Below, one piece after another: positions 23,020 to 26,000 of a stretch of 64,000 bases of DNA. The stretch's first letter is position 1; every line of letters starts with the position of its first letter. This stretch comes from Haliotis rufescens (Eukaryota), in contig NW_025963779.1 in assembly GCF_023055435.1 (NCBI RefSeq), positions 50,282,001 to 50,346,000 of the forward strand, given 5' to 3'. A program made the position numbers.

Positions 23020-26000
23020 AAACGTCAGCGCGTCTCGAATATCTGCCGAAACAGATTCCTTGTGGACGCCATAAGTTGGAGCTGAGGACACCAGAAATGG
23101 GCTTCACACACTGTACCCATGTCGGGAATCGAACCCGGGTCTTCGGCGTGACGAGCGAACGCTTTAACCACCCAAAGTATGTGATTGGCAGTGAATGTCA
23201 TCAATTAAGAAGGCTGTCATGATCAGCTGAATTAGATACCGACTTGACAATGGTGGTGTTTTACGCTGGCGTTTCATATTTCAAAGAGTATCATGTGCGA
23301 CAAAAGATGTTGTATGCCGTACGTTCGATCGGTATCAGAATCGCAAACACTTTCCCCCGATATTCAATTGCATATCTATGATTTCAAGTTGTGTTAACTT
23401 TCAGGGAATCATTAAACCTACCACCATAATCAAATATGCATACCCGATAAATATTGATATAACTGAAGTCCAAATATAATCCAAATCAGTAAATGAGAAC
23501 TGACAGGTTGTTTCTGGTTGGAATAGTCATCAGTATTGCTTGCCATGTAGTCATCTGGAAACGGTCGATCACTTTCTCTGTGGACAAACGTTTCATTTAA
23601 AAAACCCTCTCAGATTTGTATCGCCTCTTCACCATAGAAGACTCCCCTCAAGATAAATGCATTACACCTCCCTATATACGTCCCTGAAGTACGTCAGAAG
23701 GTGTAGGAAGTACAAATGAGCGGGTTTACACAGGAATAGGCGTGATTCTTGGAAGCAGCTGACTCCTGAAAACGGTAATCTGAACGTGATCAATCGCAGC
23801 AATGGTCATACGTTTATCGCTGAGTCTAATCGAGGTACTACTCCTAAGAACTGTGATATCAGCGAGGGTCATTCGACAAATGTTGCCTTACATTAAGATA
23901 TTCACTATCGATGGGCGGATATGTTTCTTCATCAGGAGAAATTCAGGCATGTTCAGTGGGCACATTTAAGCTCGACATTTTACGAAGAGCTAAGGACATT
24001 AGTGAGTGATGTCATAAGTGAGGCCGATCTGAAATGCTTATAAATGACCATTGCATATTGATAGAAGCTGGTAGGCAACAGAACAAATGCATCAACAAAT
24101 GCATCAAGTGTGAATATGTGGCGAACACATCCCAGCTGGTGGTAATTTGATGATGCATGACGATCATTTTCATCAAATGTTTTAGTTGTGTTGCTAAAAG
24201 CATTCTGGATCAACTTGGCTTCAACTGTTTCGCGACCACCCTTGCTTCCCGGATTGAACGACGTGTGTCATAACTGTACATGCGACATATTTCCAACACC
24301 ATGTCCGCTACAACATGGGAGAATGGTACTATGAGTGACGTAACAACAGCTTTATTCCTAGGAAAGAATTTTCGGGTTAAGTCTCACGACGATGCCACTT
24401 GGATACTCAGCAGCGCTTTTGTGGTGTTTACCATGCAGTCAGGTAAAAACATCATTTTGAAGTTCTCATTTCTCAAGCAATCTACTTTTGGTTATCGCTA
24501 ATATTCTCAAAGCTTGGGATTCCAGTATGTTAAAATGTATCATCATTGTATATGCGTAACAACATTTACATAGCCGTATATTCCATATGTAGTTTACTGA
24601 GTGTATGTATTGAATTTTGCTGGAAAATATAGCTACCAAGAAGCTTCAAATATATACTCCATATCTAAAAATGCTTTTTATTAGATTTAAGAAAAGGATG
24701 AAATATACTTCACTCTATCTAATACCTGGATTTGGAATGTTACATTGTTGCATTACAATCGTTTATTAATGTAGCATGTGTCAATAATTTTATTATCCTC
24801 TTTTATTTTATCAATGACATTGTCTTCATATAGATTGCTGGTTAATGACAAGACACAATATACAAGATCTGTCGCTCATCAATGTCCAAATACATTCATT
24901 TGTGTGGTATTGCATCTGCAATCAGATTAACAAACCATTAGTCACACATATAACCAATGGAAATCCAATCAAATGTTTAAAATACACGATACCAAGGAGG
25001 TTTCCTTAGTTGTTATGTATGACGAATGAACAGGACTGCCATTATTAATAACAATCGAAAATCAATTACACAGGCCAATCGCGTGTCTAACCAAATTCAA
25101 TAATCGTGAATTATAACGTTACGTTTTCAGATTAAAGCTCTTTAAATATAAGAGCTATTGCTTGGTGCATATTCCTGAACAATGGATAACTGCTCTACTA
25201 CGAAGATAGGTCTCTCATGGAACTGTTCTTGTCATGATGAAGACCCTTCATCAGATAGTATATGGATACTTACCAGCACGTTTGTCATCTTCACGATGCA
25301 GTCAGGTCGGTTTTTATCTGGGAAGGAATTTCCTCATACGTATAAAGATCGTGGGGAAGTTCATCTTCTCTGGCGATGTATATATGGCCGAATTGTAATG
25401 ATTGAATTAGGAGATAAACATTTATGTATTTTCAGCGTTCGCTAGTTTTAATGAGTATACATGTACGATACCCGTAAATTTGAATTTACACATATTTTTA
25501 TATGCAATGATGCAACAACAGTTTACGTCTCAGGTCTCAGGTGTATAAATTTGTATGAATTAACTTTAATTTATAAGGCTTAAGTGAATAAAATGATTTG
25601 TTGTTGGGGTTGGTACCTTGAAGAGCTAGCATCGTAAGTACAGGAAATGAAACCTCTTCGATGCGGAAAATAGCCATCGATTGACGACAAAGTTATGAAC
25701 GATTGCAAAGAAAGTTGAGTTGATGGTAACGAGTAACTGTAGCAACTTAAGTCTTTAACGTTGTCATAAATGTTATTCCCATGTCTTAAGGAATCTGCTT
25801 AACGAGTGTTTTGCGTGCCGTGAAGTATATATTGCAACAAAATGAGCCTAAAATGGTTTATTTCTGTAATCAATATACACAGACACTAGTTATGGTCCAG
25901 CAGGACGGTCAGTGGTACTGTAAAGATAAATACAGGTTGTCAAAATGACAATGTCTACGTTGGATGATGATCATTGATACCAAGGACAAAGTGCACTGAA

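What the first reader, a model, noticed from the sequence alone, without database searches (positions are those of the whole stretch)
24280..25305. Two tandem, mutually exclusive first coding exons give Amt B alternative extracellular N-termini and TM1
Seen: two homologous exons about 740 bp apart each have an ATG, N-glycosylation sequons (NGT in 1a; NCS twice in 1b), the TM1 motif W.L.S.FV.FTMQS and a phase-1 donor compatible with exon 2 at 42063, about 17 kb away. They differ at many synonymous sites yet stay open, which suggests selection on both. Exon 1a (DDATWILSSAF) is closer to gene A's exon 1 (DDATWILTSAF) than 1b (SDSIWILTSTF) is. Splicing 1a to the AG at 25130 gives an immediate stop, so joint inclusion is unlikely. 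Inference: alternative promoters swap part of the transporter core, which I do not know of for Amt genes. Alternatively, 1a is the orphan of a lost third paralogue.
Basis: partly seen in the sequence, partly recalled or inferred. Interest (0 to 1): 0.75.

Follow-up and report, generated by a model that had tools for sequence, protein, structure and literature searches.

The report
Two alternative first exons, abalone Amt
A red abalone ammonium-transporter gene carries two different, anciently conserved start exons, only one of which is in the public gene model, so it probably makes two proteins with different outer N-terminal ends.

Summary
The window is Haliotis rufescens. NCBI's 615-aa 'putative ammonium transporter 2' (P0001) maps exactly onto nine GT-AG exons, starting with exon 1a (24280-24442) spliced to 42063. 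Exon 1b (25182-25305) is a second, open, ATG-initiated copy with a phase-1 donor. No protein in the searched collection carries it (weak evidence).

1b is not a recent decaying copy. Its last 22 residues match the N-termini of the orthologous Amt of Batillaria, Mya, Argopecten, Pecten and Lineus at 16-17 of 22. 1a matches the Gigantopelta and Lottia orthologues at 19 and 17 of 22. A tree of the core alone places all these genes in one molluscan group. Both exon types are therefore old, and both have been kept in one abalone gene.

The best reading is two alternative, mutually exclusive first coding exons. No transcript evidence could be obtained. Use of 1b, and whether it has its own promoter, remain unshown. 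TM1 differs only conservatively. The real difference lies in the extracellular tail: basic without cysteines in 1a, acidic with three cysteines in 1b.

This is a new example of a common gene architecture, undescribed for Amt in five literature searches. Interest is moderate.

The parts
24280..24442 (+). Exon 1a of Amt gene B: first coding exon of the public model. Encodes an a-type N-terminus (tail with NGT sequon, basic K-N-F-R-V-K-S-H stretch, then DDATW...TMQS). Phase-1 donor GTAAAA at 24443.
   Evidence: 100% match to residues 1-54 of P0001. Exact exon mapping. 19 and 17 of 22 residues shared with the Gigantopelta and Lottia N-termini. In-frame stop at 24271-24273. A second ATG at 24301, in a better context (A at -3), may be the real start.
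25182..25305 (+). Exon 1b: unannotated second first-coding exon, b-type N-terminus (M-D-N-C-S start, two NCS sequons, three Cys, acidic H-D-E-D-P-S-S-D, then SIWILTSTF...TMQS). Phase-1 donor GTCGGT at 25306.
   Evidence: 16-17 of 22 residues shared with the b-type N-termini of Batillaria, Mya, Argopecten, Pecten and Lineus. In a phmmer search of 1.84 billion representatives, 2 of the 3 hits at E<=0.001 are b-type Amt N-termini. In-frame TGA at 25176-25178. ATG context A at -3, G at +4.
25131..25181 (+). Possible 5' leader of 1b if the AG at 25129-25130 is used as an acceptor. ATG-free. Read from 1a it gives Asp then TAA. A TATA-like TATAAGAG lies at 25147-25154.
   Evidence: Sequence only. Function not shown.
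24186..24279 (+). ATG-free stretch upstream of 1a, after an acceptor-like TTTTAG ending at 24185. Possible leader of 1a.
   Evidence: Sequence only. Function not shown.
25306..42062 (+). Intron 1 as counted from 1b (from 1a it is 24443-42062). Contains an N run at 41455-41628, which was not filled.
   Evidence: No Amt-like piece by tblastn. 0 of the 5 ORFs of this intron that I scanned hit Pfam.
42063..42329 (+). Exon 2 of gene B, the shared acceptor exon (rest of TM1 G-F-G-L-L-E-S-G, TM2-3).
   Evidence: PF00909 positions 17-103, E 8.7e-20.
43784..55983 (+). Exons 3-9 of gene B: 43784-44066, 44364-44435, 46519-46578, 49561-49637, 53780-53893, 54417-54538, 55294-55983 (stop).
   Evidence: Exact reproduction of P0001 with GT-AG introns.
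10862..11003 (-). Exon 1 of the divergently oriented paralogue, gene A. Third exon-1 homologue in the window, a-type, phase-1 donor GTAAGT.
   Evidence: Gene A's exon 4 alone groups with Mizuhopecten 'ammonium transporter 2-like' P0110 (SH-aLRT 98).

Best explanation
Gene B is the red abalone orthologue of a molluscan Amt-type ammonium transporter. It has two alternative first coding exons used one at a time. Each supplies its own start codon, an extracellular N-glycosylated tail and the outer two thirds of TM1. Each splices in phase 1 to the common exon 2 at 42063.

Shown:
- Both exons exist, are intact and fit exon 2.
- 1a is the one in the public model.
- Each exon type has its own orthologues in other molluscs within a single orthologous group.

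Inferred:
- Both exons have coexisted in this gene since at least the split of the abalone and limpet lineages.
- 1b could not have stayed intact and b-type over that time without purifying selection, so it is used, probably in a tissue, stage or condition that the annotation evidence did not capture.
- Joint inclusion is self-limiting, because 1a followed by the 25131 acceptor stops at once.

Whether the choice is made by two promoters or by mutually exclusive splicing from a shared non-coding leader is open.

The likely functional difference is in the extracellular vestibule and in trimer contacts, not in the pore. The last roughly 15 tail residues before the conserved Trp are net about +1 in 1a (K, R, K against D, D) and about -4 in 1b (D, E, D, D). 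1b has three tail cysteines and 1a has none.
For: Gene model and exon anatomy
- P0001 (H. rufescens) is 100% identical to 1a.
- the nine exons reproduce P0001 exactly.
- 1b has an ATG in a good context, an in-frame stop one codon upstream, no internal stop and a GT donor in phase 1.

Age of the copies
- similarity among the three exon-1 copies is confined to the coding TM1 part. Synonymous sites are saturated (pS 0.65-0.85) and pN is 0.15-0.24, so all are old duplicates.

Each exon has its own orthologues
- 1b shares 16-17 of 22 residues with the b-type N-termini of Batillaria, Mya, Argopecten, Pecten and Lineus X1, where 1a shares 11-14. 1a shares 19 and 17 of 22 with Gigantopelta and Lottia, where 1b shares 13.
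- the mean identity of 1b to six other b-type ends is 16.3 of 22, inside their own range of 15.8-17.3. There is no sign of faster decay.
- an index-free search with 1b returns b-type Amt N-termini as 2 of 3 hits at E<=0.001.

One orthologous gene, not two paralogues
- core-only tree of 46 rows. H. rufescens B, Gigantopelta and Lottia (a), Mya, Batillaria, Argopecten and Pecten (b) and Tegillarca form one clade (SH-aLRT 95).
- careful tree of 18 rows. The four gastropods, including b-type Batillaria, form one clade (84/98), so a and b do not mark two paralogous gene lineages.

Neutral decay is unlikely
-, substitution-only simulation. The chance of keeping ATG, open frame and GT is 0.36 at 0.1, 0.16 at 0.2, 0.02 at 0.5 and 0.003 at 1.0 substitutions per site.

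Why the tail could matter
- (passages of PMC4852598): in Mep2 the long N-terminus builds an extracellular vestibule and contacts a neighbouring monomer. The authors judge that this likely stabilises the trimer, and they cite plant AMT work on N-terminal cysteines (reference list only).
Against: - No transcript, junction or TSS data could be reached.
- One search found no protein carrying 1b. This is weak evidence, because the collection is searched by representatives of 90% clusters. A 1b isoform would sit unseen in P0001's cluster (3 members), which would have listed the members, was switched off.
- The NCBI name has no 'isoform X' label, which by NCBI's naming habit (recalled) suggests a single annotated product.
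- The 1b donor GTCGGT has C at +3, while 8 of 8 donors used by the model have A or G there.
- No species was shown to carry both exon types in one gene. Among the 120 proteins, no pair with >93% identical cores differed in N-terminal type. Again, isoforms would be merged in clusters.
- Batillaria is a partial protein (39% of columns), and the gastropod clade is not strongly supported (84/98).
- Intactness alone allows neutral drift of up to about 0.1-0.2 substitutions per site, so a recent death of 1b is not excluded.
- The Mep2 paper also reports that an N-terminal deletion grew like wild type, so a functional effect of the tail is not assured.
Confidence: 0.6

Rival explanations
1. 1b is a relic. 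It was the ancestral first exon of this orthologue, still used in bivalves, caenogastropods and nemerteans. In the abalone lineage 1a replaced it, and 1b went silent too recently to have accumulated disabling changes.
For: - Only 1a is in the public model.
- No 1b protein was found.
- The donor has an unusual C at +3, against 0 of 8 used donors.
- Intactness is compatible with neutral drift up to about 0.1-0.2 substitutions per site.
- Frames stay open by chance for 47 codons past the 1b donor.
Against: - The a-type exon is shared with Lottia and Gigantopelta (17 and 19 of 22), so 1a is old. 1b must then have been kept for most of that time alongside 1a, and a very recent loss after so long a coexistence is an extra assumption.
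- 1b shows no excess divergence from other b-type ends (16.3 against 15.8-17.3 of 22).
- It keeps the ATG in a strong context, the M-D-N-x-S start also seen in Argopecten and P0121, and both sequons.
Confidence: 0.2
2. Both exons are transcribed from one promoter, and 1b is sometimes included after 1a through the acceptor at 25130. The 1a reading frame then stops at once. 1b would act as a poison or regulatory exon, or would be translated only by reinitiation, rather than as a true alternative start exon.
For: - Acceptor-like TTTTCAG ends at 25130, with a branch-point-like TTATAAC upstream.
- Reading from 1a gives G+AT then TAA.
- Several database models of related genes start at the Met of T-M-Q-S-G (P0010, P0035, P0043, P0105). 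This is what a model with an interrupted upstream frame would give.
Against: - A poison exon needs no conserved coding sequence. 1b instead keeps a b-type protein signature, a start codon and a phase-1 donor.
- The polypyrimidine tract is short.
- No transcript data.
Confidence: 0.1
3. The pair arose by fusion of two tandem paralogous genes. An a-type gene lost its body and left 1a in front of a b-type gene. 1a is spliced to exon 2 only as a by-product.
For: - Amt genes are clustered here: gene A lies head to head 13 kb away.
- All three exon-1 copies are ancient duplicates.
- An N run at 41455-41628 hides 174 positions of intron 1.
Against: - 1a is the start of the public model, and the same a-type exon starts the Gigantopelta and Lottia orthologues. 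It is therefore a long-standing part of this gene, not an accidental orphan.
- Core-only trees give one orthologous group, not an a-clade and a b-clade.
- No other Amt exon remnants lie between 25.3 and 42 kb.
- As a scenario for the remote origin of the pair it is not excluded, but it would not change the present state.
Confidence: 0.1

Closest known systems
Alternative first coding exons and mutually exclusive homologous exons in membrane-transporter and channel genes (for example the A/B/F cassette of the kidney Na-K-2Cl cotransporter gene; recalled, not checked in any call)
   Same: Tandem homologous exons of equal phase each encode the same transmembrane segment. One is chosen per transcript, and inclusion of both breaks the frame.
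   Different: Here the duplicated exon is the start exon, so each copy also carries its own ATG and extracellular tail. The choice may be made by promoter rather than by splicing. The membrane-embedded residues differ only conservatively. Use of the second exon is not yet shown.
Anopheles gambiae AgAmt and AgRh50 (PMC4216128, passages read; also mentioned in PMC10794816)
   Same: Animal ammonium transporters of the Amt/Rh superfamily. One of them (AgRh50) has two isoforms with tissue-specific expression.
   Different: According to that paper AgAmt gives a single transcript. The AgRh50 isoforms differ at the 3' end, in the cytoplasmic C-terminus, not at the N-terminus or TM1.
Fungal Mep2 and plant AMT1 N-termini (PMC4852598, passages; Graff et al. 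2011 seen only as a reference entry)
   Same: An extended, N-glycosylated extracellular N-terminus precedes TM1. In Mep2 it forms a vestibule and touches the neighbouring monomer. [quoted passage not shown] 1b has three tail cysteines.
   Different: Those proteins have one fixed N-terminus each. No sequence similarity of the tails was tested. A Mep2 N-terminal deletion grew like wild type.
NCBI model 'putative ammonium transporter 2 [Haliotis rufescens]' (P0001)
   Same: It is this gene: all nine coding exons including 1a are identical.
   Different: The model does not contain exon 1b.

Membership tests
Amt subfamily of the Amt/Mep/Rh superfamily (Pfam PF00909) | Significant match to the Ammonium_transp profile over the whole domain | tested here: met
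   P0001 residues 41-441 match profile positions 2-395 of 399, 389 bits against a cutoff of 23.2. Exon 2 alone scores 71.2 bits. The exon-1 peptides alone (1a, 1b, gene A) give 0 families each, being too short.
Amt subfamily of the Amt/Mep/Rh superfamily (Pfam PF00909) | Homology to solved Amt structures starting within TM1 | tested here: met
   28 distinct PDB sequences at E<=1e-20. The best is 6eu6_A at 1.3e-54, and the alignment begins at P0001 residue 38, D-A-T-W. Exon 1 therefore supplies the start of the fold.
Amt subfamily of the Amt/Mep/Rh superfamily (Pfam PF00909) | Conserved pore residues (twin histidines, and the aspartate before the first His motif; residue roles recalled) | tested here: met
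   In the alignment, the stretches I-D-I-A-G-A-G-P-V-H-L-V-G-G and I-D-D-P-V-G-C-V-G-V-H-A-V-G-G of P0001 align with the matching D and H positions of 6eu6. They lie in exons 3 and 7-8, which both isoforms would share.
Amt subfamily of the Amt/Mep/Rh superfamily (Pfam PF00909) | Ammonium transport activity; trimer; N-out topology with glycosylated tail | not testable with these tools
   Only sequons are seen: NGT in 1a, NCS twice in 1b.
Alternative (mutually exclusive) first coding exons | Two homologous exons in tandem upstream of a common acceptor exon | tested here: met
   45-nt repeat at 80% identity, 863 nt apart, start to start. Common exon 2 at 42063.
Alternative (mutually exclusive) first coding exons | Each exon has its own start codon and a donor in the same phase; joint inclusion breaks the frame | tested here: met
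   ATG at 24280 (and 24301) and at 25182. In-frame stops at 24271-24273 and 25176-25178. Both donors are phase 1. 1a plus 25131 gives a stop at once.
Alternative (mutually exclusive) first coding exons | Both exons under purifying selection or conserved in relatives | tested here: inconclusive
   Each type has orthologues at protein N-termini within one orthologous group. No second genome could be examined for both exons in one locus, and no dN/dS among close species was possible.
Alternative (mutually exclusive) first coding exons | Transcripts joining each exon, never both, to exon 2 | not testable with these tools
   1a>exon 2 exists only as NCBI's model. There is no evidence of any kind for 1b>exon 2.
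Alternative (mutually exclusive) first coding exons | Separate promoter or TSS for each exon | not testable with these tools
   Only a TATA-like TATAAGAG at 25147-25154, about 30 nt before the 1b ATG, which would leave almost no 5'UTR. Acceptor-like AGs precede both exons.

The most novel reading that the evidence does not exclude
A pair of mutually exclusive start exons has been kept in one Amt orthologue since before the abalone, limpet and Gigantopelta lineages split, probably several hundred million years (dating recalled). Annotation pipelines report only one of the two in each species. The two isoforms give the transporter either an acidic, cysteine-bearing extracellular vestibule or a basic, cysteine-free one. 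This would tune ammonium recruitment or trimer stability by tissue or life stage, a mode of regulation not described for Amt/Mep/Rh proteins.
Probability: 0.4. Interest if true: 0.55.

Novelty: new member of a known kind. Interest (0 to 1): 0.4.

Why it matters
If 1b is used, the public abalone gene model misses an isoform. The same may hold for the orthologues in other molluscs, where each annotation shows only one N-terminal type.

Animal Amt proteins are studied for ammonia excretion, for symbiosis in clams and mussels, and for sensing in insects. No paper with relevant content on N-terminal isoforms of animal Amt turned up in five searches. A natural pair of isoforms with identical pores but tails of opposite charge would be a ready-made experiment on what the eukaryotic N-terminal vestibule does, a point the Mep2 structure paper leaves open.

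The finding is still an ordinary kind of gene architecture, and its use is unproven.

Tried and rejected
Searches that led nowhere
- Direct search for a protein carrying 1b: none found. The search sees only cluster representatives, so this says little.
- Listing the members of P0001's cluster: switched off.
- Pfam on the exon-1 peptides alone: 0 families for all three, including the two annotated ones, so uninformative.
- Inverted repeats around the two exons, as possible docking or selector pairs: 13 short pairs of 12-21 nt at 71-93% complementarity, none standing out. Not pursued.
- A hidden gene in intron 1: 0 of 5 intron ORFs hit Pfam, and tblastn found no Amt remnant.
- Pairs of database proteins with the same core but different N-terminal type: none among the 120.
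- Literature (search listings only unless stated): searches found nothing on alternative first or mutually exclusive exons of animal Amt genes. One search gave 0 papers.

Unfinished
- The AU test of 'the three a-type gastropods as one clade' did not finish in the time limit and was not resumed.

Caveat on a count
- My loose pattern for 'b-type' (11 of 114) also caught DDA[IV]W variants of the a-type. Only 5 proteins (P0007, P0013, P0015, P0022, P0026) carry the full D-P-x-[ST]-D-[SA]-[IV]-W-I-L-[ST]-S-T-F signature. P0011 and P0055 are partial matches.

Rejected idea
- That 1a was recently copied from gene A: pS is 0.65 and the flanks do not align.

Not done by rule
- The spliced 1b+exon 2... 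model was never built, printed, searched or folded. Searches were made exon by exon (1a, 1b, exon 2) or with the database protein P0001.
- The N runs (22788-22917, 41455-41628, 44186-44333) were not filled or looked up.
- The contig is abalone, not human.

Unchecked
- Genome contigs holds only bacteria and archaea and was not used.
- Other mollusc genomes and all RNA data could not be reached.
- Paper supplements were not asked for.
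Full report
Where we are. The window is eukaryotic, at 34-44% G+C, with three N runs that I left untouched. A search with the translation of exon 1a returned one protein at 100% identity: P0001, NCBI's 'putative ammonium transporter 2 [Haliotis rufescens]', 615 aa. A script that tried all GT/GC-AG combinations near the tblastn pieces found exactly one exon chain whose translation equals P0001. 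The exons are 24280-24442, 42063-42329, 43784-44066, 44364-44435, 46519-46578, 49561-49637, 53780-53893, 54417-54538 and 55294-55983, all GT-AG. The window is therefore red abalone, not human, and the public model of 'Amt B' starts with exon 1a. P0001 is a full Amt: PF00909 positions 2-395 of 399 at 389 bits, and 28 solved Amt/Mep sequences at E<=1e-20, with the alignment starting at residue 38 inside exon 1. A paralogue, gene A, lies head to head on the minus strand, with its exon 1 at 11003-10862.

The observation. Exon 1b is 25182-25305: ATG, 41 codons plus one base, donor GT at 25306. It has two NCS sequons. The W-I-L-x-S-x-F-V-x-F-T-M-Q-S motif is shared with 1a, and 740 nt separate the two exons. 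Both are in phase 1 and fit exon 2. Reading from 1a through the AG at 25129-25130 gives Asp then TAA. In-frame stops lie just upstream of each ATG (24271-24273 and 25176-25178), so each exon can only be a start exon. The similarity is not chance: tblastn within the window gives E = 9e-7 and 4e-6, and there is a 45-nt repeat at 80% identity. The window holds exactly three exon-1 homologues, and no other Amt fragment lies between 25.3 and 42 kb.

How old are the copies. DNA similarity is confined to the TM1 codons, and the introns and upstream parts do not align. Over the last 19 codons, the proportion of synonymous differences is 0.77 (1a-1b), 0.65 (1a-A) and 0.85 (1b-A). The non-synonymous proportions are 0.24, 0.15 and 0.18. 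All three copies are thus ancient, and 1a is not a recent copy of gene A's exon. Its DDATW motif is simply the family consensus, seen in 63 of the 114 N-termini I could delimit among 120 proteins.

The decisive evidence is orthology of each exon. A search with exon 2 alone returned 455 proteins at E<=1e-10, of which the best 120 were listed. Their N-termini fall into two types.
- The a-type has ...DDATWIL[TS]SAF... In Gigantopelta (P0003) and Lottia (P0004) it carries the same basic extension as 1a ([KR]-N-[FL]-[RK]-[VI]-x-S-H before DDATW).
- The b-type has D-P-x-[ST]-D-[SA]-[IV]-W-I-L-[ST]-S-T-F. It occurs in Mya (P0007), Argopecten (P0022), Pecten (P0026), Batillaria (P0015) and Lineus isoform X1 (P0013). 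Looser versions occur in Capitella (P0011) and Argonauta (P0055).
Over the last 22 residues, 1b shares 16-17 with the five full b-type ends, where 1a shares 11-14. 1a shares 19 and 17 with Gigantopelta and Lottia, where 1b shares 13. The start of 1b, M-D-N-C-S, recurs as M-D-N-V-S at the start of Argopecten and as M-D-N-L-S inside the unnamed 59-aa ORF P0121. An index-free phmmer search of 1.84 billion representatives with the 41-aa 1b peptide gave 3 hits at E<=0.001. P0121 is a b-type exon read through its donor, Batillaria P0015 is the second, and P0122 is a repetitive protein that I take for spurious. The mean identity of 1b to six other b-type ends is 16.3 of 22, within their own range of 15.8-17.3. 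It has not diverged faster than exons that head annotated proteins.

One gene or two. I built trees from the core only, cutting every protein at the G-F-G-L-L-E-S-G motif so that exon 1 could not influence them. With 46 rows (quick method), H. rufescens B, Gigantopelta and Lottia (a-type), Mya, Batillaria, Argopecten and Pecten (b-type) and Tegillarca (N-terminus missing) form one clade with SH-aLRT 95. Gene A's exon 4 alone joins Mizuhopecten 'ammonium transporter 2-like' (98). The other Haliotis proteins in the list (P0074, P0106) belong to a third, distant group. With 18 rows (careful method), the four gastropods, including b-type Batillaria, form one clade (84/98) inside a bivalve-gastropod group (88/93). 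The a and b types therefore do not mark two paralogous gene lineages. They are two start exons of one orthologue, and the abalone locus shows both in one gene. Caveats: Batillaria is partial (39% of columns), the supports are moderate, and an AU test I started did not finish.

What follows. The a-type exon is shared with Lottia and Gigantopelta. The b-type exon is shared with a caenogastropod, bivalves and a nemertean. The simplest history is that both were already in this gene before the abalone and limpet lineages split, an old split (dating recalled, not computed). A substitution-only simulation starting from 1b gives the chance of keeping ATG, open frame and GT as 0.36 at 0.1, 0.16 at 0.2, 0.02 at 0.5 and 0.003 at 1.0 substitutions per site. 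The TM1 peptide would also be lost well before that. So 1b must have been under purifying selection for most of its coexistence with 1a, which means it has been used. Intactness alone cannot exclude a silence of up to about 0.1-0.2 substitutions per site, so a recently dead exon remains a rival.

Evidence against present use. No transcript data are reachable with these tools. No protein in the collection carries 1b, but that search sees only representatives of 90% clusters. A 1b isoform, more than 90% identical to P0001, would be hidden in its cluster (3 members), and the tool that lists members was switched off. The NCBI name lacks 'isoform X', which suggests a single annotated product (naming habit recalled). 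The 1b donor is CAG|GTCGGT, with C at +3, whereas all 8 donors used by the model have a purine there. It still pairs with the consensus at -3 to +2, +5 and +6 (consensus recalled). In its favour, the 1b ATG has A at -3 and G at +4. The first ATG of 1a has T at -3, and a second ATG at 24301 has A at -3.

How the choice might be made. This is open. A TATA-like TATAAGAG at 25147-25154 sits about 30 nt before the 1b ATG, which would leave almost no 5'UTR. An acceptor-like TTTTCAG ends at 25130 and is followed by 51 ATG-free bases. A similar TTTTAG ends at 24185 and is followed by 94 ATG-free bases before 1a. Both designs fit the sequence: two promoters, or a shared non-coding leader with mutually exclusive splicing, with the stop after 1a+25131 removing double inclusion. 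Short inverted repeats in the region are unremarkable.

What would differ between the isoforms. From the Trp onward, TM1 differs at three conservative positions (S/T, A/T, V/I) in 14 residues, so 'swapping part of the transporter core' overstates it. The tails differ strongly.
- 1a: 37 residues before D-D-A-T-W, one sequon, no cysteine, and a basic juxtamembrane stretch (K, R, K against D, D).
- 1b: 24 residues before the D of D-S-I-W, two sequons, three cysteines, and an acidic stretch (D, E, D, D).
In fungal Mep2, the long N-terminus builds an extracellular vestibule leading to the ammonium site and touches a neighbouring monomer. The authors think this stabilises the trimer, and they cite plant work on N-terminal cysteines. 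They also found that deleting the N-terminus did not impair growth (PMC4852598, passages). My inference, untested, is that the two abalone tails change vestibule charge and/or trimer stability, not the pore. I did not build or fold the 1b-containing protein, because the joined step was to be left out.

Comparison with what is known. Alternative first exons and mutually exclusive homologous exons that recode a transmembrane segment are common in transporter and channel genes (recalled). For animal ammonium transporters, the papers I could read describe a single AgAmt transcript and 3'-end isoforms of AgRh50 (PMC4216128, passages; PMC10794816, passages). Five full-text searches found nothing on alternative first or mutually exclusive exons of Amt genes in animals (search listings only). 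The hits were plant transcriptome surveys and pharmacology guides, which I did not open. I therefore file this as a new member of a known kind: the gene and family are known, the architecture is ordinary, and the second start exon is unannotated and apparently undescribed.

Verdict. The most likely reading is two anciently conserved, mutually exclusive start exons (confidence 0.6). The rivals are a recently silenced relic (0.2), a poison-exon or uORF role (0.1), and a fusion by-product (0.1). Interest is 0.4. The finding would rise if RNA data show tissue- or stage-specific use, or if other gastropod genomes show the same a-then-b arrangement.

Noticed in passing
window 51484-52560 (+): An uninterrupted 358-aa ORF with Tc1/mariner-type domains (DDE_3 at 2.9e-11, HTH_Tnp_Tc3_2 at 3.8e-11) sits inside the intron between exons 6 and 7 of gene B. 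It is possibly a still-intact transposase.
   Followed up: partly
window 18750-19139 (+), 21327-22010 (-), and 19400-21230: Degenerate DDE_3 transposase fragments flank long arrays whose ORFs repeat a unit of about 14 residues (V-I-Q-V-L-L-E-D-E-V-Y-L-H-W). They lie in the 13-kb spacer between the divergent Amt genes A and B. The repeat was seen only in the ORF list.
   Followed up: no
window 8116-8385 (+): An ORF with a GIY-YIG nuclease domain (3e-5) lies inside intron 1 of gene A. It may be a fragment of a Penelope-like element (that attribution is recalled, not tested).
   Followed up: no
window 2880-3903 (-) versus 42063-42329 (+): Gene A splits into two exons (ORFs 3676-3903 and 2880-3104) what is a single exon 2 in gene B, so an intron was gained or lost between the paralogues.
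   Followed up: no
proteins P0010, P0035, P0043, P0105: Four annotated Amt models from other animals (Octopus, Tubulanus, Amphiura, Babylonia) begin at the Met of T-M-Q-S-G and so lack the tail and most of TM1. This suggests that the first coding exon of this family is often mis-modelled, which may hide further alternative start exons.
   Followed up: no
window 44583-44784 (+): Just after exon 4 of gene B, the intron contains tandem copies similar to each other. The intronic tail of the exon-4 ORF hits 44606-44746 and 44583-44717 at 60-64% identity at the protein level.
   Followed up: no
protein P0013 (Lineus longissimus 'isoform X1'): The nemertean orthologue with a b-type start is named isoform X1, so NCBI annotates more than one isoform there.
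   Followed up: no
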